From a virus, in IMG/VR virus record IMGVR_UViG_3300045988_063098: DNA of 19,596 nt. One strand, 5' to 3'. Positions 1 through 19,596 of this stretch are shown piece after piece (positions within the stretch are counted from its first letter, which is position 1; every line of letters starts with the position of its first letter). The position numbers and the translations under genes were made by a program. The notes under the pieces are model-generated. The model made no database searches. It worked only from the letters and a program-made list of their open reading frames with translations, and was not told the origin of the DNA.

Positions 1-149
1 AAAGCATGTACTCCCCCACCCCTTTTTCAAAAATTCCCCCAATGGAAATTTGAAAATGAAATGAAAGAGAAAACTCATTTCCAACACTATCTATTTTCAA
101 AATCAATCATCTATCATCTTATAAAATCCTTTCATCTGTTTCTATTATC

Positions 150-177
150 ATTATATCACAATTTAGAAAAATGTCAA
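150..177 (-). promoter_or_regulatory. Outward-facing sigma-A-type promoter in the left ITR (reads toward the genome end)
   Basis: On the minus strand: TTGACA (177-172), 16-nt spacer, TGaTATAAT (extended -10, TATAAT = 155-150). It is the mirror copy of 19420-19447. The predicted start near 143 would give a run-off RNA of about 140 nt. Confidence 0.55.
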
Positions 178-221
178 GAAAAAACTTTCTAAAATAAATT
201 TAAAATATTTTTAAAAATCGC

Positions 222-249
222 TTGACAATAATTTTTAATATGCTATAAT
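222..249 (+). promoter_or_regulatory. Left early promoter 1 (tandem pair)
   Basis: TTGACA 222-227, 16-nt spacer, TGcTATAAT with TATAAT at 244-249. There is an A/T-rich upstream tract. Confidence 0.75.
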
Positions 250-314
250 GGTTATAGTTAGAAATGAGATAAAAACATTTCTAAAAATAAATTAAAATAA
301 ATTTAACAAAACAC

Positions 315-343
315 TTGACAAGCATTTTGAGAAATGCTATAAT
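315..343 (+). promoter_or_regulatory. Left early promoter 2 (tandem pair)
   Basis: TTGACA 315-320, 17-nt spacer, TGcTATAAT with TATAAT at 338-343. It lies 93 bp downstream of promoter 1 in a diverged duplicate of the same module. An AAGAGG SD and ATG 373 follow. Confidence 0.8.
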
Positions 344-372
344 GGTATCAGAAAGTTAAAGAGGTAAGAAAA

Positions 373-642
373 ATGATTATCAATAATCAATATGTGATGA
401 CTATGCAAGCAGGTATGAACATGAAAGATAAATTAGTAAAACTTGCTAAAAGTCAAGGTTTTACGGATAGAAATATCTGTATTTTTGTAGGAAAGGCAAA
501 CCTAGAAGAAAAAGGTTTTCACTCTTATGTAGAGGGAACAAAAGAAACCTTGAATGTCGAAGATTTTGAAAGATTTTTAGAATATTTTCAATTCAAATAT
601 GTTGGATATTGTGGAAATGAAAACGTGTATTTGTATAGATAG
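373..642 (+). CDS. Early protein, unknown function (89 aa)
   Basis: ORF directly downstream of the tandem early promoters, with SD AAAGAGGT about 8 nt before the ATG. I recognise no motif. Confidence 0.7.
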   Translation: MIINNQYVMTMQAGMNMKDKLVKLAKSQGFTDRNICIFVGKANLEEKGFHSYVEGTKETLNVEDFERFLEYFQFKYVGYCGNENVYLYR

Positions 643-6255: not shown

Positions 6256-7746
6256 TTACCCTTTCTGTAACTCGTCTTGAATGGTTGAAAGCCAAGCGTT
6301 AGCCTGCTCTATGCGTTCCGCTTCTTTGTAGGCTACACCCTCCCAGTTGTTCATAAAGTCGCTTGCATTGGTGCTGGCGCTGGCTGATGAACTGGCTACC
6401 CGTCTAAACGTGTCCGCCCTGCTCTCTTGGTTCATGAATTGAAATTGTAGGTTAAAATCCCAAAGTGATTTCCCTTGACTTCGTGCAAAGTTCAAAAGCT
6501 CTTCCGCCCTTGGTCCAGTCCATTGTCCTATCCCAATACCTATCCAGTGATTACCGTCTGACCCTCTATAGCCTGCTTCGTTTAAGCTGATAGAGTAGAG
6601 ACTAGCAAAAGCGCCCCAGCTTCCCATGAGGTTTTCCGCTGTTGGCTCTGATTCCATTTTCTCGTACTCGTAACCTGTAGCATAGTCTGCTTCGTATTTT
6701 TTGGCTGTAACGTTGCTTTCTGCTGAAAAGTTCCCGATAATTCCAGCTATCCCTTCTGCTGTTGCGTCTGGTACTAGCTTCTTAATAATTCGGGTCACTA
6801 GCCTAACTCGGCTTTCTTCGGTTGATGTGTCGCCCTCTTCGTTGGTGCTTCCGCTTCCTCCACTTGAACCACTTCCAGAACTTCTATAATTCCGTGTATT
6901 CTTTCGCCCAATCTCTGCAACACTGCCCGTTATATTAGACAAGATTTCTATATAGGTCTTGTCTCCGTCTGCTGTCTCTTTGTATTTTACACCAATATCA
7001 CGACTTAAATACATATTGACAATCTGGTTAACGGTGCTTGACCCGTCCTGATTCAATCCGAAAAGGTGTTTATATAGGTTTTCAAGGTAAAAGCTATCAT
7101 ACTTTTTGCCTTGGAAAATAAAAGGTCTGGACGCTCTACTTTTCAAAATTACAGGGATAAAAAAGTATTTAAAGGTTTTCTGTATACCTGAATAACTCAT
7201 ATTTACGGGGCGGTTTGCCTTGGTGGTCATCTTAATCGTAGGTTTTGCCACGACTACAAGCCACTCTGTATCGATTCCGACTTCTCCAGCGCGTGTAGCG
7301 TACTTAGTCCCAACTGAAAAACCTTGCTGACTGTCTTTCAGCGCCCACAATTCATTAGGCAATGTCCGCTGTTCTACCTGTCCTATCACGTTTAGGCTCT
7401 TCAATTCGTGCTGGTAGGTGTTCCATACATCCACCTCGTAAATAATACGGGTTGCGTCTTCATTGATATAAAGCACGTCAAAGACAAAGGCATAGTAGGT
7501 TCTTCCATTGTTAATAAACCTCATATAAGTTACGTTTTCATATTTCTCCACCCGTCCAGAAATTACTATTGAGCCGTTTCTTTGGGTATATTGAAACTTA
7601 TCATACTCGTAGACAATTTCTATATGTGGATTCGTTTTTGTGAAAAAGTCTTCCATAGCTTCCCTTGTCTCAAAATTGATAACATTGGCATAGTCATTTT
7701 TAAACGGGCTTTTTGCATAAAGCCATATCTTGGTTGATTCTTGCAT
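6256..7746 (-). CDS. Tail protein: N-terminal half of a phi29 gp9-like tail knob fused through a Gly/Ser linker to a C-terminal phage tail lysozyme-like domain (496 aa)
   Basis: Start chosen at ATG 7746 (MQESTKIW) because SD AAAGGAG lies 5 nt upstream and a terminator lies just before it. The longer ORF reaching 7899 would overlap the upstream gene by 115 nt. SPFKNDYANV and YMRFINNGRTYYAFVFDV...YEVDVWNTY match phi29 gp9 (VPFSNDYKNT, YIMFQNADYGNKWFYAFVTEL...FEIDVLQTW). The linker is SSGSGSSGGSGS. The C-terminal GIAGIIGNFSAESN...GIGIGQWTGPRAEELLNFA...FNLQFQFM resembles the phage tail lysozyme family. Confidence 0.8.
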   Translation of the reverse strand: MQESTKIWLYAKSPFKNDYANVINFETREAMEDFFTKTNPHIEIVYEYDKFQYTQRNGSIVISGRVEKYENVTYMRFINNGRTYYAFVFDVLYINEDATRIIYEVDVWNTYQHELKSLNVIGQVEQRTLPNELWALKDSQQGFSVGTKYATRAGEVGIDTEWLVVVAKPTIKMTTKANRPVNMSYSGIQKTFKYFFIPVILKSRASRPFIFQGKKYDSFYLENLYKHLFGLNQDGSSTVNQIVNMYLSRDIGVKYKETADGDKTYIEILSNITGSVAEIGRKNTRNYRSSGSGSSGGSGSTNEEGDTSTEESRVRLVTRIIKKLVPDATAEGIAGIIGNFSAESNVTAKKYEADYATGYEYEKMESEPTAENLMGSWGAFASLYSISLNEAGYRGSDGNHWIGIGIGQWTGPRAEELLNFARSQGKSLWDFNLQFQFMNQESRADTFRRVASSSASASTNASDFMNNWEGVAYKEAERIEQANAWLSTIQDELQKG

Positions 7747-7758
7747 AGATTCTCCTTT

Positions 7759-7784
7759 AAAAATAGGAGGGCTGAAACCCTCCC
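7759..7784 (-). terminator. Intrinsic terminator/attenuator inside the late operon
   Basis: On the minus strand, directly after the TAA (7787-7785): GGGAGGG (7784-7778), loop TTTCAG, CCCTCCT (7771-7765), then ATTTTT (7764-7759). The SD of the next gene follows. Confidence 0.7.
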
Positions 7785-8546
7785 TTATTCTTGTCCTATC
7801 TGTCCTTGTCCCAGCCATTGCCCAGACTGCCTGATTCGGTGCGGTGCTGGTATAGCTTGCCCGACTGCGTTTGCTGGTTGTTCGCTGACGTCTTGCCAAC
7901 CGCCTTTCCTCTGTTGGAAGATACCGCTTGGCCGGTTTAAGGTCTTAAAGATTCCGTCTTTACGGATTGCCCACGGTTTCAACGTTTTAGGCTTTTTCTT
8001 GTTGGTATTATATAGGTACATACCCACATAAAAGGAATTGTCTGAATATTGTCCGTCTGGATAAGATACATTTATATTTAAGGCACTGGCTGATGAACTT
8101 TCTTCGGCTGGTATGGTTACGGTAAAGTCTTGAGAAACTTCATCATTTTTAATCACTTCATCGGTTGTATATCCGCTAAACGTCCAAACGGTGCGCCCGT
8201 TGATTTTAATATCATACTCAACCCGATACCCAGCGTTTGAGCTGACCCGTTTACTCCACCAAAAGAGGGCTTTAACTCTGATTTTAGCCGTGATGGAATT
8301 ATCATCGTTTTTTGTCTCTTCTAGGATTTCAACCGATTCCCCCCAGAACCTCATAGACGCCCATACAGACGGGTCATTTTGCCCGTACTGTATATAGGTT
8401 GTGTTGCCGTTGGTCATATAACCATAATCTGTGTCCCCTGAGAACTGCCACGCATTAGCATAGGCTTCCGTCCAAGGGGCTACACCTGTACCAAAGTTTT
8501 CTACGTTGGCGGTGGTAGAGGTTGAAAATCGTGCTTCTAAAGGCAT
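7785..8546 (-). CDS. Virion structural protein, putative distal/receptor-binding part of the fibre or appendage (253 aa)
   Basis: ORF coupled to the upstream coiled-coil protein by a TAATG overlap. The sequence is aromatic/beta-rich with a basic, Gln-rich C-terminal tail. The function is positional inference only. Confidence 0.45.
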   Translation of the reverse strand: MPLEARFSTSTTANVENFGTGVAPWTEAYANAWQFSGDTDYGYMTNGNTTYIQYGQNDPSVWASMRFWGESVEILEETKNDDNSITAKIRVKALFWWSKRVSSNAGYRVEYDIKINGRTVWTFSGYTTDEVIKNDEVSQDFTVTIPAEESSSASALNINVSYPDGQYSDNSFYVGMYLYNTNKKKPKTLKPWAIRKDGIFKTLNRPSGIFQQRKGGWQDVSEQPANAVGQAIPAPHRIRQSGQWLGQGQIGQE

Positions 8547-9337: not shown

Positions 9338-10306
9338 TTAGTGTGATTCTTCATCTGCTAATGGTTGTGGAATGTTTCTAGCTGTTTCAGGTTCTGACGC
9401 TGTGTTTGCTCTTGGAAATTCAGCATGAGGAAACTCTGTTGGGTTGCTTGGTGCTGGTGTTGGTGTGTTATCAACGGGCGGTAATGGACTATATTCTAGT
9501 TTAGGTGTAGGGTCTTTATACCCGTCAAAATGCTCTGTAGGAAATTCTATACGTGTTGAAATGCGCTTCTCTTGAAAACGTGGTTCAATAGGCGCTTTTT
9601 TCATACTTGTAAACCATTGATAATATAGTTGGAAATTTTCAATCTGTTCATGCTGGTTAAAGGTCAAAACTAGGTTTTGCTCTGGTGTTAATTCAGCTTT
9701 AACACTTAACAGATAATCATTAAAGATTTTATAAGGTTGGTCGCTGTCTACAAAATCTTCTCTGTTGAAATGGAAGAAAGTAGTTGCACCTTGTTCCCCT
9801 CTAACATGGATAAGCAAGTAACCGTTAAATTCTTCATCATCTTTAAAAGTGATGTTAGTGGTTACTTTTTCAAATTGTCTGAATATTTTACCATAATATC
9901 CTAGTGTTACTGGAATTTTATCAATTTCAGTTTCAATCATTTCTGAAATAGATTCTTTCAAAGCGTCTTCATTTACTGAAATAGCGTCTGATTCTTTTGT
10001 AAATTTAATCAGCTTACCGTCACGCAAAGGGAACTGTGTGAGGTCTTGATTTAGTCCCTCCACTTTCCGTTTATCTGGGTCGCTTCCACTCCATGTAGTA
10101 GAAACTGAAATGTAAGGAATATGAGATTCAACTCCATTGATTTTATCGCCGTCAGCGTTTAAAACTAGGCTTGTGTCCCCGTTCTTGTCCTGTGACAAGT
10201 CAGCAAGCGCCTGCTTACCTTCGATTGATAGGCTTTCTACCCCCTGATGTTTTTGGAACTTAATCCATGAATGAATACCCCGAACCAATTTAGTTGTCTT
10301 TGCCAT
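9338..10306 (-). CDS. Structural-module protein of unknown function (322 aa) with a Pro-rich C-terminal tail
   Basis: ORF with SD AAAGAGGT. It overlaps the upstream gene by 17 nt. The C-terminus PTPKLEYSPLPPVDNTPTPAPSNPTEFP is Pro-rich. I recognise no motif. Confidence 0.6.
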   Translation of the reverse strand: MAKTTKLVRGIHSWIKFQKHQGVESLSIEGKQALADLSQDKNGDTSLVLNADGDKINGVESHIPYISVSTTWSGSDPDKRKVEGLNQDLTQFPLRDGKLIKFTKESDAISVNEDALKESISEMIETEIDKIPVTLGYYGKIFRQFEKVTTNITFKDDEEFNGYLLIHVRGEQGATTFFHFNREDFVDSDQPYKIFNDYLLSVKAELTPEQNLVLTFNQHEQIENFQLYYQWFTSMKKAPIEPRFQEKRISTRIEFPTEHFDGYKDPTPKLEYSPLPPVDNTPTPAPSNPTEFPHAEFPRANTASEPETARNIPQPLADEESH

Positions 10307-10604
10307 CTTCTTTTACCTCTTTCTCTTTATTTATAACCTTAATTGAATTTTTATAAAGCTGTTCAAGTGTTACGATGTAACTCAAGATAGCTTTTAAAGT
10401 CTGTGCCGTAGTACGTTTTTTAAAAATCCGTAGCAATGTATAACCGTCTTTCTTAACATAATCATCTATGTTAGATTTCAAAAACAAGTATATACAATCG
10501 CAAACCGTAGATACACGGGCGCAAGATTGGTCTGTATCGTCTCCGTGTCCCGTGACTTCGATTTGTAGCGTGTCCGTTGTCTCGGACAAGTTGATAATTA
10601 TCAT
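10290..10604 (-). CDS. Prp-like cysteine protease (ribosomal-processing protease / DUF464 family), candidate capsid-maturation protease (104 aa)
   Basis: IEVTGHGDDTDQSCARVSTV matches the Prp signature (..GHA....D.VCAAVS..) with a His20/Cys28 dyad. The later DGY.L.I and L..L..LY motifs and the ~100-aa size also fit. ATGA overlap with the upstream gene. Confidence 0.65.
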   Translation of the reverse strand: MIIINLSETTDTLQIEVTGHGDDTDQSCARVSTVCDCIYLFLKSNIDDYVKKDGYTLLRIFKKRTTAQTLKAILSYIVTLEQLYKNSIKVINKEKEVKEDGKDN

Positions 10605-11185
10605 AATGTTTCATGTCCTCTTTCTGCTGTCATAACGGTGCGAGGGACTCCTTTTCTATCATTGGTTACATTGATTTTAAAGGTTGCCCAATCTTCTAGG
10701 AGTTGCTGACCATCAACCTCTACCCGTCTTTCTTGCAAGCCTGTGACGTTCATCTGGTAGTTAGGTGTTATGATAACCCCGTTATCCCAGTGAACCACCT
10801 CGTTTACAAGGGGTATGCGTGAGAAATAGTTGTTGTCGTCTATCACTCTGCCAAAGCCTTTCAGCTTGCTTTTGCTTGTCAGACGTTCAAAACTATAGTA
10901 AGCGCCCACAATCTTAAAGCGAATGAATAAAAGCGCCTTAATGGATTGTAACGGCTGGTAGCTTTTGCGGATAGTCCAGAAAGTTTGGTCTTCAATGCTT
11001 TCATAATGATAAGAAATAGGCTTTAGTTTTATCCACAACTTAGACAAGTCGCCTAACCGTCTGCTATTTGACTGAATATAATATAAACCATCATCAGAAT
11101 AAGCAAAATCTTGAAAGCTGAAAAGCGTGATTTCTTCTAACATACTATCATATTTTAGTATTTTAGCGCTTGATAAATCTTTCAT
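10601..11185 (-). CDS. Structural-module protein, unknown function (194 aa)
   Basis: ORF with SD GAAAGGGG 6 nt upstream of the ATG, packed in the late operon. Confidence 0.6.
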   Translation of the reverse strand: MKDLSSAKILKYDSMLEEITLFSFQDFAYSDDGLYYIQSNSRRLGDLSKLWIKLKPISYHYESIEDQTFWTIRKSYQPLQSIKALLFIRFKIVGAYYSFERLTSKSKLKGFGRVIDDNNYFSRIPLVNEVVHWDNGVIITPNYQMNVTGLQERRVEVDGQQLLEDWATFKINVTNDRKGVPRTVMTAERGHETL

Positions 11186-12901: not shown

Positions 12902-13999
12902 TTAGGCTTCCTCCACATACCAGAAATGAATGTTTTCAAAAAGTGAAAGGCTGGTCATGTAGTGATGATGGTAGAAATAGTTGTAGGTCATGTTGCGAGG
13001 GTTGCGGATTGCTTCCATGTGTACCAGCTTATCTTTATTGATGATGGATTTAGCAGAGATAAGGAAAGCAACTGGCTTGCGTCCATTGTTTGCGCCCTCT
13101 CCCGTAAATTTTTCAAAATCATCTACTACGATTGTGCGAGCGAGTACGCTAGCTTTATCCATGTTGAAAGCGTTAGCTAGAAGCATGTCAAGATGTGTAG
13201 AAAATTCTGCTGAAATAACTAGGTACTGGTCTTCAATCGCCGTCATGTTTGGCACGCCTACGGGGTTATTAAATTGGGTACGGCTTGGAATTGTAAAACG
13301 TTTAGATTGGTTGATAAGTGACTGGTTAAAGTCTACAACAAAGTCTTGTTTGCTTTCGTCAATCTTCGTGCCTGCCACCGTGATTTTTTTAGCTTTACCT
13401 TTAAGGTCAGTATAGCTGACTTCTGCAAGTGATTTCTCAAGTACACCCTTAACAGCTTGGTACTCGTCCAGCGTGTCAGATGAAAGGAGTGATGTAAACA
13501 TTTTATCTACAAACTCATCAAACGCCATGTCAGAAACAAAGGCTTTCTGAATCCAAGCACGCTCAAACGTGCGCTCATAGTAGTTTTCATTGTTCAACGT
13601 GTGATAGAATACTTCGATGTCTGTATCAGCGAATTTGAACGGGCTAACGTCTGATTTTGCGTTATAGGTTTTCTTTTCGGCTGGGTGTACGTAGATTTCT
13701 TGCAATGTGTCCCCAAACTCAAAGGTTTCAGACTTGAAAATAGCAAGCGGATTTTCATAAGTAAGCGCCTTGATAACGGTTGACCCGATACGGTTTACCA
13801 AAGCTGTGAAAAACTCATTGGCATGCTTTTGAAAATCTTGGTACGGTACGGTTGCGTGGTTAATGCGTGCGCCCTCAAGTACAGGAATGTCTGCCTGATA
13901 GTCAGCGCTGGCACGGGTGCGGATAGAGTTCAATAGGTCAATGTTTGAGATTTGCTTCCCTGTCTGACCTGATAAAAAAGTGGTAATTTTATTAGCCAT
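12902..13999 (-). CDS. Major capsid (head) protein, phi29 gp8 / Cp-1 gp9 homolog (365 aa)
   Basis: By-eye alignment to phi29 gp8: [25 protein letters not shown] vs [35 protein letters not shown] vs [27 protein letters not shown] vs METVRNPRGLYWNYYYH. The 365-aa length matches the Cp-1 major head protein as I recall it. Confidence 0.93.
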   Translation of the reverse strand: [365 protein letters not shown]

Positions 14000-14000
14000 G

Positions 14001-14225
14001 TTATTCTTCTCCCTCTTCTACGATGTTTTCGTGGTCGATGTTCATTTCTACGCCCTCAACTTCGCTGGCTGGGGCTTGCGCTGGATAGTTTGGCACTTCC
14101 TGCGCTGGTGTGTCAGCAGGCATAACTGCTGGCGGTGTAACTTCTGCGACTGTTTCTGGCTCGTCCTTAAGTGCGTCTAGTGCGTTGTTAGGATACCAGT
14201 TAATTGATTTTGAAAATGGTTTCAT
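14001..14225 (-). CDS. Small acidic Pro/Ala-rich protein (74 aa), unknown morphogenetic role
   Basis: ORF with SD AAAGGAAG. Its stop TAA is separated by 1 nt from the capsid ATG. The composition is Pro/Ala/Glu-rich (VTPPAVMPADTPAQEVPNYPAQAPASEVEG). Confidence 0.6.
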   Translation of the reverse strand: MKPFSKSINWYPNNALDALKDEPETVAEVTPPAVMPADTPAQEVPNYPAQAPASEVEGVEMNIDHENIVEEGEE

Positions 14226-18957: not shown

Positions 18958-19224
18958 TTACTCAACTTCTTCAAACCAGTCTGAAATATTTGTGTATAGT
19001 TCAGATAGTGTTTTCACTCTTTCATAGTAACCAGCAAACGGTACAAACTCATTATTTCTATACAATTCAAGTTTTATCTCATTTCCTAAGTCTACAATCT
19101 GGTTTACGTGGTCGCCATACATTTCAGCGTTATCAGCGTTGAAAATCACATCTAGCGCTTGCCCGTGTGTAAGTTCTGCAAAAGTTTCATCGTTGTGATT
19201 TACATATAGAGCTTTCATTTTCAT
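18958..19224 (-). CDS. Right-end early protein, small and acidic (88 aa)
   Basis: Its ATG (19224-19222) and everything upstream (SD and two promoters) lie inside the right ITR and are identical to those of the left-end gene at 373. Confidence 0.7.
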   Translation of the reverse strand: MKMKALYVNHNDETFAELTHGQALDVIFNADNAEMYGDHVNQIVDLGNEIKLELYRNNEFVPFAGYYERVKTLSELYTNISDWFEEVE

Positions 19225-19253
19225 TTTTCTTACCTCTTTAACTTTCTGATACC

Positions 19254-19282
19254 ATTATAGCATTTCTCAAAATGCTTGTCAA
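19254..19282 (-). promoter_or_regulatory. Right early promoter 2 (ITR copy of 315-343)
   Basis: Exact mirror copy: TTGACA = 19282-19277 and TATAAT = 19259-19254 on the minus strand. Confidence 0.8.
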
Positions 19283-19347
19283 GTGTTTTGTTAAATTTAT
19301 TTTAATTTATTTTTAGAAATGTTTTTATCTCATTTCTAACTATAACC

Positions 19348-19375
19348 ATTATAGCATATTAAAAATTATTGTCAA
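19348..19375 (-). promoter_or_regulatory. Right early promoter 1 (ITR copy of 222-249)
   Basis: Exact mirror copy: TTGACA = 19375-19370 and TATAAT = 19353-19348 on the minus strand. Confidence 0.75.
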
Positions 19376-19419
19376 GCGATTTTTAAAAATATTTTAAATT
19401 TATTTTAGAAAGTTTTTTC

Positions 19420-19447
19420 TTGACATTTTTCTAAATTGTGATATAAT
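19420..19447 (+). promoter_or_regulatory. Outward-facing promoter in the right ITR
   Basis: TTGACA 19420-19425, 16-nt spacer, TGaTATAAT (TATAAT 19442-19447), pointing at the genome end about 150 bp away. Confidence 0.55.
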
Positions 19448-19596
19448 GATAATAGAAACAGATGAAAGGATTTTATAAGATGATAGATGATTGATTTTGA
19501 AAATAGATAGTGTTGGAAATGAGTTTTCTCTTTCATTTCATTTTCAAATTTCCATTGGGGGAATTTTTGAAAAAGGGGTGGGGGAGTACATGCTTT

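What the first reader, a model, noticed from the sequence alone, without database searches (positions are those of the whole stretch)
10290..10604. Phage-encoded Prp-family cysteine protease in the structural module, a candidate for N-terminal processing of the capsid protein
Seen: the 104-aa ORF has the Prp (ribosomal-processing protease, formerly DUF464) hallmarks GH-x7-C in IEVTGHGDDTDQSCARVSTV, plus the C-terminal DGY...L..L..LY pattern and the right size. Established: bacterial Prp removes the N-terminal extension of ribosomal protein L27 in Firmicutes. In S. aureus, host Prp also trims the capsid and scaffold proteins of phage 80alpha. As I recall, the Cp-1 major head protein is reported to be N-terminally processed near His-49. 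Here the capsid ORF has INH/ATVPY with His at residue 48. Inference: this phage carries its own Prp-like enzyme to mature its capsid protein, and possibly the scaffold or the 74-aa acidic protein, independently of host Prp. A virulent phage encoding a paralog of a host ribosome-maturation protease could also affect host L27 processing.
Basis: partly seen in the sequence, partly recalled or inferred. Interest (0 to 1): 0.65.

Follow-up and report, generated by a model that had tools for sequence, protein, structure and literature searches.

The report
Known Cp-1 capsid-maturation protease (Prp family)

Summary
The window is a complete Cp-1-like pneumococcal phage genome (Cepunavirus), about 91% identical to Cp-1 and SOCP, read in reverse orientation. 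The ORF at 10290-10604 (minus strand, 104 aa) is real. It is 96% identical to Cp-1 orf13 and holds the same place in the gene order.

Prp-family membership is well supported:
- The Pfam Peptidase_Prp match runs the full length of the model, though it is below the curated cut-off.
- 37 of 42 clade members hit the same family.
- Profile-profile probability is 98.9%.
- The AlphaFold model's nine best PDB matches are all Prp structures.
- Gly19-His20 and Cys28 are invariant.

The capsid protein's first 112 residues are identical to Cp-1's, including ...RINH48|A49TVPY.

The literature already covers both points. Martín, López and García (J Virol 1998) showed that orf13 is the endoprotease that removes the first 48 residues of the major head protein. 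Reviews report that MEROPS places the Cp-1 enzyme with Prp in family C108, clan CR.

No other phage protein carries the site, and the L27 motif (LQLF|AHKK) is unrelated.

The parts
10290..10604 (-). Capsid-maturation cysteine protease, 104 aa. It is the ortholog of Cp-1 orf13 / Cp-7 ORF14 and belongs to the Prp (Pfam PF04327, MEROPS C108) family.
   Evidence: 96% identity to Cp-1 orf13 and 59% to Cp-7 ORF14. Same position in the gene order. Pfam Peptidase_Prp E=0.0014 over model positions 1-89 of 90. Foldseek top 9 PDB hits are all Prp structures. hhalign 98.9%.
10545..10547 (-). Codon of His20, the predicted catalytic histidine of the His/Cys dyad (within Gly19-His20-Gly21).
   Evidence: The codon is CAC. 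It is invariant in 42 clade members and 33 distant representatives. It aligns with the GH of TM1457 and of Prp-like proteins.
10521..10523 (-). Codon of Cys28, the predicted catalytic nucleophile (within Gln26-Ser27-Cys28-Ala29-Arg30).
   Evidence: The codon is TGC. It is invariant in all alignments. It aligns with the conserved Cys of TM1457 and Prp-like proteins.
10616..10623 (-). Ribosome-binding site AAAGAGGA, 11 nt upstream of the protease start codon. The start overlaps the stop of the upstream 194-aa gene (ATGA), which suggests translational coupling.
   Evidence: Read directly from the sequence. An RBS is annotated at the equivalent place in the Cp-1 record.
12902..13999 (-). Major head protein (365 aa, Phi29_MCP family), the substrate of the protease.
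   Evidence: 95% identical to Cp-1 orf9 and 98% to the Cp-7 major head protein, with residues 1-112 identical to Cp-1. Matches phi29 gp8 in the PDB at E=1.7e-34.
13856..13999 (-). Codons 1-48 of the major head protein: the segment removed on maturation (5.2 kDa; 41.7 kDa precursor gives a 36.5 kDa mature protein).
   Evidence: Translation reads MANK...GARINH. Removal of the first 48 residues is reported for Cp-1 (PMC12445089). Residues 18-48 align with residues 16-46 of phi29 gp8.
13844..13867 (-). Cleavage-site region R45-I-N-H48 | A49-T-V-P52.
   Evidence: I46, N47, H48 and P52 are invariant, and residue 49 is A, S or V, in head proteins down to 43% identity that sit near a Prp-like gene. 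It is the only INH[AS] site in the phage proteome.

Best explanation
The ORF encodes the prohead (capsid-maturation) endoprotease of a Cp-1-like pneumococcal phage. It is a single-domain Prp-fold cysteine protease of about 12 kDa with a His20/Cys28 catalytic dyad. It is made from the late structural operon, probably by translation coupled to the upstream gene. It recognises the conserved ...R-I-N-H|A-x-V-P... segment of the major head protein and cuts between His48 and Ala49. This removes a 5.2 kDa N-terminal segment and yields the 36.5 kDa mature shell subunit. What was shown here: orthology to Cp-1 orf13, Prp-family homology and predicted fold, conservation of the dyad, an identical substrate N-terminus, and co-conservation of enzyme and site in relatives. 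What is taken from the literature: proteolytic activity, the position of the cut and the requirement for maturation (Cp-1 orf13; Martín et al. 1998). What is inferred: which residues are catalytic (by homology to SaPrp H22/C34), and that cleavage takes place during or after prohead assembly.
For: Window identity: about 91% identical to Cp-1/SOCP over 92% of its length, with 376-bp exact inverted terminal repeats. The ORF is 96% identical to Cp-1 orf13 at the syntenic position. Family evidence: Pfam PF04327 E=0.0014 full length; 37 of 42 clade members hit PF04327, best E=4.9e-6; clade profile against the PDB finds TM1457 (1s12, a Prp-family protein) at E=4.1e-5; hhalign against Prp-like proteins gives 98.9%, E=1.4e-17, with GH and C aligned. 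AF2 model: pLDDT 88, strand-strand-helix-strand-strand-helix-strand. The Foldseek top 9 PDB chains are all Prp-family entries (1s12, 7kld, 2g0j, 4peo, 2idl), each with probability 1.00. G19, H20 and C28 are invariant. Capsid residues 1-112 are identical to Cp-1. The INH|[A/S/V] site is invariant in divergent relatives that keep the order MCP-connector-collar-X-Prp. Literature: the Cp-1 endopeptidase cleaves the first 48 residues of the major head protein and is placed in C108 / clan CR with Prp (PMC12445089; PMC9405229; PMC9261936).
Against: The single-sequence Pfam score (19.3 bits) is below the curated cut-off (27), and no NCBIfam Prp model is hit, so the family link rests on profile and fold evidence. 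The structure is a prediction. The primary 1998 paper could not be read here, so its content is taken from citing reviews and from memory. No experiment exists for this particular phage. The catalytic roles of His20 and Cys28 have, to my knowledge, not been tested by mutation in the phage enzyme.
Confidence: 0.93

Rival explanations
1. The phage Prp-like enzyme has further substrates beyond the head protein. It might trim the scaffold or the 74-aa acidic protein, or act on (or compete for) the host L27 precursor and so interfere with host ribosome maturation.
For: It is homologous to the host L27-processing enzyme. Host Prp in S. aureus cleaves both L27 and phage 80alpha capsid and scaffold proteins, so dual use of one Prp is known (PMC9405229). 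Ala at P1' is shared between the two site types.
Against: No other protein of the window has an INH[AS] site or an LQ[FLH][FL][AS] site. The scaffold protein has no histidine. The pneumococcal L27 site ...NNLQLF|AHKK is unlike ...GARINH|ATVP. The phage clade has a loop between His and Cys that is 4 residues shorter than in L27-type Prps, resembling TM1457, which the review discusses under non-L27-cleaving Prps (PMC9405229). There is no hit to the NCBIfam ribosomal-Prp equivalogs. Structural identity to pneumococcal Prp 2idl is only 18%.
Confidence: 0.06
2. The protein is a non-catalytic Prp-fold assembly factor or chaperone, and the head protein is cut by another enzyme (host Prp or another protease).
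For: A chaperone-like role towards L27 has been proposed for Prp (PMC9261936). The Pfam score is sub-threshold.
Against: The His/Cys dyad is invariant in all relatives. The published conclusion for the 96% identical Cp-1 protein is that orf13 itself is the endoprotease. From memory, that work included expression in E. coli, which has no Prp (E. coli is marked as lacking Prp in PMC9405229 Table 3). The cleavage site does not resemble the host Prp motif.
Confidence: 0.02

Closest known systems
Cp-1 orf13 product (Cp-1 endopeptidase; Martín, López, García, J Virol 1998; placed in MEROPS family C108, clan CR)
   Same: 96% identical over all 104 residues. Same gene position, between the 194-aa gene and the head-fibre/appendage gene. 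The substrate N-terminus is identical (head protein residues 1-112), including RINH48|A49.
   Different: Four substitutions, all in the C-terminal third (A67V, K100E, E101T, D102N relative to Cp-1) and away from the dyad. The host phage genome is about 9% divergent from Cp-1, with longer inverted terminal repeats (376 bp exact) and a diverged downstream gene.
Bacterial ribosomal-processing cysteine protease Prp (YsxB; SaPrp 4peo/7kld, S. pneumoniae 2idl, S. mutans 2g0j)
   Same: Same small single-domain fold. Same GH...C(A)xxS dyad motif and C-terminal ...LxxLxxxYPxxIK... helix-strand. Same kind of reaction: removal of an N-terminal segment with a small residue at P1'.
   Different: 17-20% identity in structural alignment. 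The loop between His and Cys is 4 residues shorter. The gene lies in a phage structural operon, not between rplU and rpmA. The substrate is the capsid protein, with P1 His in RINH|A instead of P1 Phe in LQ(F/L)F|A, and 48 residues are removed rather than 9-14. No NCBIfam Prp equivalog is hit.
TM1457 of Thermotoga maritima (PDB 1s12), a Prp-family protein from an organism without long L27
   Same: It is the best sequence and structure match (26% identity, TM 0.68-0.76, rmsd 2.2 A). It also has a short His-to-Cys loop: 6 residues between them against 7 here.
   Different: It is a cellular protein whose substrate is unproven (FlhB has been proposed, PMC9405229). It is not in a phage.
Host-Prp-dependent capsid and scaffold processing in S. 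aureus phage 80alpha
   Same: A Prp-family enzyme trims the N-terminus of a phage capsid protein during head assembly (PMC9405229).
   Different: 80alpha has no protease of its own. It mimics the L27 motif (NLQFF|A, NLQHF|A) to borrow the host enzyme. The Cp-1 group carries its own enzyme and a private recognition site.

Membership tests
Ortholog group of Cp-1 orf13 (Cp-1 capsid-maturation endopeptidase) | High full-length sequence identity to Cp-1 orf13 | tested here: met
   96% identity over 104 of 104 residues; tblastn E=1e-51.
Ortholog group of Cp-1 orf13 (Cp-1 capsid-maturation endopeptidase) | Same position in the late structural operon of a Cp-1-type genome | tested here: met
   The order head protein - connector - collar - 194-aa gene - this ORF - head fibre is the same as in Cp-1 and Cp-7 and in 19-kb metagenomic relatives.
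Ortholog group of Cp-1 orf13 (Cp-1 capsid-maturation endopeptidase) | Cognate substrate site present in the major head protein (cut after residue 48) | tested here: met
   Head protein residues 1-112 are identical to Cp-1, including RINH48|A49.
Ortholog group of Cp-1 orf13 (Cp-1 capsid-maturation endopeptidase) | Actual cleavage of the head-protein precursor | not testable with these tools
   Reported for Cp-1 only, in the literature (PMC12445089). It needs co-expression or virion mass spectrometry for this phage.
Peptidase_Prp (Pfam PF04327) / MEROPS C108, clan CR | Statistically supported sequence homology to the family | tested here: met
   The single sequence scores E=0.0014, 19.3 bits, which is below Pfam's 27-bit cut-off but aligns over the full model. 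37 of 42 clade members hit PF04327, best 4.9e-6. The clade profile finds 1s12 at E=4.1e-5. hhalign against Prp-like proteins gives 98.9%, E=1.4e-17. The curated single-sequence threshold itself is not reached.
Peptidase_Prp (Pfam PF04327) / MEROPS C108, clan CR | Prp fold: a small alpha/beta domain of about 90-115 residues | tested here: met
   AF2 model with pLDDT 88 and pTM 0.78. The nine best Foldseek PDB chains are all Prp-family structures, with probability 1.00 and TM up to 0.76. The structure is predicted, not solved.
Peptidase_Prp (Pfam PF04327) / MEROPS C108, clan CR | Conserved His/Cys catalytic dyad in the GH...C motif | tested here: met
   G19, H20 and C28 are invariant in 42 clade members and 33 distant representatives, and they align with the family's GH and C.
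Ribosomal-processing Prp proper (NCBIfam PRK14553 equivalogs; L27 maturation) | Scores above the equivalog model cut-off | tested here: not met
   No NCBIfam family is hit at E<=0.01.
Ribosomal-processing Prp proper (NCBIfam PRK14553 equivalogs; L27 maturation) | Substrate carries the L27-type motif MLxx(D/N)LQ(F/L)F|A(S/H)KK | tested here: not met
   The capsid site is GARINH|ATVP, and no LQ[FLH][FL][AS] occurs in any window protein.
Ribosomal-processing Prp proper (NCBIfam PRK14553 equivalogs; L27 maturation) | Gene lies next to rpmA (L27) | tested here: not met
   The gene lies in a phage structural operon, and the window has no ribosomal protein gene. Adjacency of rpmA and ysxB is as stated in PMC9261936.

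The most novel reading that the evidence does not exclude
The Cp-1-type enzyme defines a distinct short-loop, phage-borne branch of the Prp family. This branch has co-evolved with a private capsid recognition site (INH|[A/S/V]xxP) across a wider, mostly uncultured set of phi29-like phages. Unlike phi29, these phages clip off the segment homologous to the phi29 gp8 N-terminal region (residues 18-48 align with gp8 residues 16-46). The 'phage-related' cellular Prp and this prohead protease would then be two specialisations of one ancestral N-terminal trimming enzyme. A stronger version, that the phage enzyme also perturbs host L27 maturation, is not excluded but has no support.
Probability: 0.3. 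Interest if true: 0.35.

Novelty: already known. Interest (0 to 1): 0.12.

Why it matters
It matters little as a discovery. The function of this gene was established experimentally for Cp-1 in 1998, and its kinship with Prp is recorded in MEROPS, as cited in recent Prp and cysteine-protease reviews.

The practical value is for annotation. GenBank and RefSeq records of Cp-1, SOCP and Cp-7, the UniProt/BFVD entry for SOCP, and PHROG 23584 all still call the gene hypothetical or of unknown function. Two Prp papers misname the phage as staphylococcal.

This window and its dozens of metagenomic relatives can safely be annotated 'capsid maturation protease, Prp family (C108)', with the head protein cleaved at His48|Ala49.

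Tried and rejected
1. I tried to read the primary papers: Martín 1998 (PMC109866 / PMID 9525689), Martín 1996 (PMC190243), Wall 2015 and 2017 (PMC4418427, PMC5397363) and Häuser 2011 (PMC3133188). None is held, so the published facts come from citing papers.

2. I looked for additional substrates with regular expressions for the capsid site and for the L27 motif over all 22 main proteins. The only hit to the capsid-site patterns was the head protein. The one other match, to a loose pattern ([LIVM][NQ].[FLH]A), was VNPFA near the C-terminus of the 170-aa orf7 product, which I did not consider meaningful.

3. NCBIfam gave no hit for the window protein.

4. tblastn against 50,697 phage genomes found only Cp-1, SOCP and Cp-7, plus one chance-level hit at E=8. 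Isolated phages outside Cepunavirus therefore do not carry a close relative. The more distant relatives came only from the exhaustive profile search.

6. Rfam and tRNA scans of the window found nothing.

7. I considered the overlapping 47-aa ORF (10471-10614, a different frame of the same strand) and the 55-aa plus-strand ORF (10468-10635) as alternatives. I rejected them because the 104-aa frame is the one conserved and homologous to Prp.

Full report
**What the window is.**
The 19,596-bp window is a complete linear genome of a Cp-1-like pneumococcal phage (genus Cepunavirus; Madridviridae in the current NCBI taxonomy, Salasmaviridae in the older records). It is presented in the reverse orientation relative to the Cp-1 record. 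It matches Streptococcus phages SOCP and Cp-1 at about 91% identity over 92% of its length, and Cp-7 at about 90% over 84%. Its two ends form an exact 376-bp inverted repeat. The gene order on the minus strand is that of Cp-1: terminal protein, DNA polymerase, scaffold, a 74-aa acidic protein, major head protein, connector, collar, a 194-aa protein, the 104-aa ORF in question, head fibre/appendage genes, tail genes, encapsidation ATPase, holin and a Cpl-1-type lysozyme.

**Check of the observation.**
- The ORF lies at 10290-10604 on the minus strand and encodes 104 residues (11.9 kDa, pI 5.8).
- The string IEVTGHGDDTDQSCARVSTV is there, with His20, seven residues, then Cys28. DGY is at 53-55 and LY at 83-84.
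- A good Shine-Dalgarno sequence (AAAGAGGA, 10623-10616) precedes the ATG.
- The ATG overlaps the TGA of the upstream gene (ATGA), and the next gene's ATG (10306) lies 17 nt inside the 3' end. This compact arrangement is typical of coupled translation.
- The capsid ORF (12902-13999, minus strand) reads ...EGARINH48|A49TVPY....

**Identity of the gene.**
The protein is 96% identical to the product of Cp-1 orf13 (CAA87748) and 59% identical to Cp-7 ORF14. It occupies the same slot in the gene order. A word-indexed search of 5.8 billion proteins returned 55 relatives at 50-95% identity. Almost all with any length of contig sit on contigs of about 19 kb, which are Cp-1-like genomes from metagenomes. 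The three contigs examined have the same gene order. Within this clade G19-H20-G21 and Q26-S27-C28-A29-R30 are invariant.

**Is it a Prp-family protein?**
- *Sequence.* Pfam Peptidase_Prp (PF04327) matches end to end (residues 1-88 on model positions 1-89 of 90), but at E=0.0014 and 19.3 bits, below the curated 27-bit cut-off. Of 42 clade members, 37 hit the same family at E<=0.01, with a best E of 4.9e-6. phmmer against the PDB finds TM1457 (1s12), a Prp-family protein, at E=0.002. The clade profile finds it at E=4.1e-5, with GH and C aligned.
- *Exhaustive search.* An HMMER search of 1.84 billion cluster representatives with the clade profile found only 35 clusters at E<=0.001. In an alignment of 33 of them, only G19, H20 and C28 are invariant. 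Twelve of the 33 hit PF04327 at E<=0.001, with a best E of 4e-27.
- *Profile-profile.* Six of the representatives carry the long loop GHA(x)10-11C typical of cellular Prp, and they hit the NCBIfam 'ribosomal-processing cysteine protease Prp' models, though below those models' equivalog cut-offs. Comparison of the Cp-1 clade with these six gives 98.9% probability and E=1.4e-17. It also shows that the Cp-1 clade has a 4-residue deletion between His and Cys.
- *Fold.* The AlphaFold2 model (pLDDT 88, pTM 0.78; strand-strand-helix-strand-strand-helix-strand; residues 96-104 disordered) was searched against the PDB with Foldseek. The nine best chains are all Prp-family structures: TM1457 (1s12), S. 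aureus Prp (7kld, 4peo), S. mutans SMU.848 (2g0j) and the S. pneumoniae protein 2idl. All have probability 1.00, and there is a 50-fold gap in E-value to the next hit. Against predicted viral structures, the best hits after the SOCP ortholog are metagenomic phage proteins named 'Cysteine protease' or 'YsxB-like protein'.

Family membership at the level of Pfam PF04327 / MEROPS C108 is therefore well supported. Membership in the ribosomal Prp equivalog group is not supported: there is no NCBIfam hit, the genomic context differs and the substrate differs.

**What is already published.**
[quoted passage not shown] They also state that it is the only other member, with Prp, of MEROPS family C108 / clan CR (PMC12445089; PMC9405229; PMC9261936). 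The latter two mislabel the phage as staphylococcal and give the removed segment as about 40 residues. From memory, the 1998 abstract attributes the activity to orf13 on the basis of cloning Cp-1 ORFs in E. coli and S. pneumoniae and Western blots. I could not open that paper here.

**Mechanism.**
By homology with S. aureus Prp, where H22 and C34 form the dyad (H22A, C34A and C34S mutants lose more than 95% of activity; PMC9405229), His20 and Cys28 are the predicted catalytic pair. The substrate is the 41.7 kDa head-protein precursor. Cutting between His48 and Ala49 releases a 5.2 kDa N-terminal piece and leaves a 36.5 kDa mature protein.

The site is highly conserved. In head proteins from relatives whose Prp-like gene is only 29-60% identical (loci L002, L003, L005-L008, L010, L011), I46, N47, H48 and P52 are invariant and residue 49 is A, S or V. 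This holds even where the head proteins are only 43-55% identical overall. Those divergent contigs keep the order head protein - connector - collar - one or two genes - Prp-like gene. So enzyme and site travel together, which is independent comparative support for the enzyme-substrate pairing.

One further detail: residues 18-357 of the head protein align with residues 16-338 of phi29 gp8 (E=1.7e-34). The removed segment is therefore not an add-on. It corresponds to the N-terminal region that phi29 gp8 also has. To my knowledge phi29 does not process gp8.

The scaffold protein (96 aa) contains no histidine. The 74-aa acidic protein has no INH-type or L27-type site. Pattern searches over all 22 main proteins found INH[AS] only in the head protein, and found no LQ[FLH][FL][AS] anywhere. 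The pneumococcal L27 site (...TLNNLQLF|AHKK, PMC9405229) shares only the small P1' residue with RINH|ATVP. The phage enzyme's short His-Cys loop resembles TM1457, which the review treats as a non-L27-cleaving Prp, rather than the L27-type enzymes. An effect on host L27 cannot be excluded by computation, but nothing points to it.

**Verdict.**
The finding is useful mainly as an annotation fix. GenBank and RefSeq (Cp-1, SOCP, Cp-7), BFVD/UniProt (SOCP) and PHROG 23584 all leave this gene as hypothetical or of unknown function.

Noticed in passing
window 1-376 and 19221-19596: The two ends of the window are an exact 376-bp inverted repeat, so the window is a whole linear genome of the protein-primed Cp-1 type. 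The repeat contains a duplicated 43-aa ORF (61-192 on the plus strand, 19405-19536 on the minus strand). From memory, this is longer than the repeat reported for Cp-1 (236 bp).
   Followed up: partly
window 9338-10142 (C-terminal two thirds of the 322-aa gene downstream of the protease): The megablast alignment to Cp-1, SOCP and Cp-7 stops at about 10142. The rest of this gene (Cp-1 orf14, called 'Head fiber' in Cp-7) has diverged beyond megablast detection, a mosaic break right after the protease gene.
   Followed up: no
window 14001-14225 (-): A 74-aa very acidic, proline- and alanine-rich ORF lies between the scaffold and head-protein genes. It is conserved as a 61-77-aa gene in all relatives examined and is annotated in Cp-7 (ORF9). 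It is not annotated in the 1996 Cp-1 record. Its function is unknown, and it has only a marginal PHROG hit.
   Followed up: partly
L001 (Cp-1 Z47794) head protein residues 184-198, compared with window 12902-13999: The Cp-1 record's head protein differs from the window and from Cp-7 in one 15-residue block (RVYLRNHLRKSLIQT against KGVLEKSLAEVSYTD), flanked by identical sequence. This looks like a pair of compensating frameshifts, perhaps errors in the old sequence.
   Followed up: no
window 6256-7899 (-) and 7785-8546 (-): The mechanically listed 547-aa ORF starts at a TTG and overlaps the preceding gene by 115 nt. The true start is probably the internal ATG giving MQESTKIW..., because relatives have 494-496-aa proteins with Caud_tail_N and Phage_lysozyme2 domains.
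   Followed up: no
loci L008, L010, L011 (metagenomic contigs): Divergent, uncultured phi29-like phages have head proteins 43-70% identical to the window's and carry a short-loop Prp-like gene at the same position. They also keep the INH|[A/S] site. L010 in addition fuses the two tail genes into one 1168-aa protein.
   Followed up: partly
literature (PMC9405229, PMC9261936): Two Prp papers describe Cp-1 as a 'staphylococcal' bacteriophage and give the removed segment as about 40 residues. Cp-1 is a pneumococcal phage, and the segment is 48 residues according to PMC12445089 and the sequence here.
   Followed up: yes
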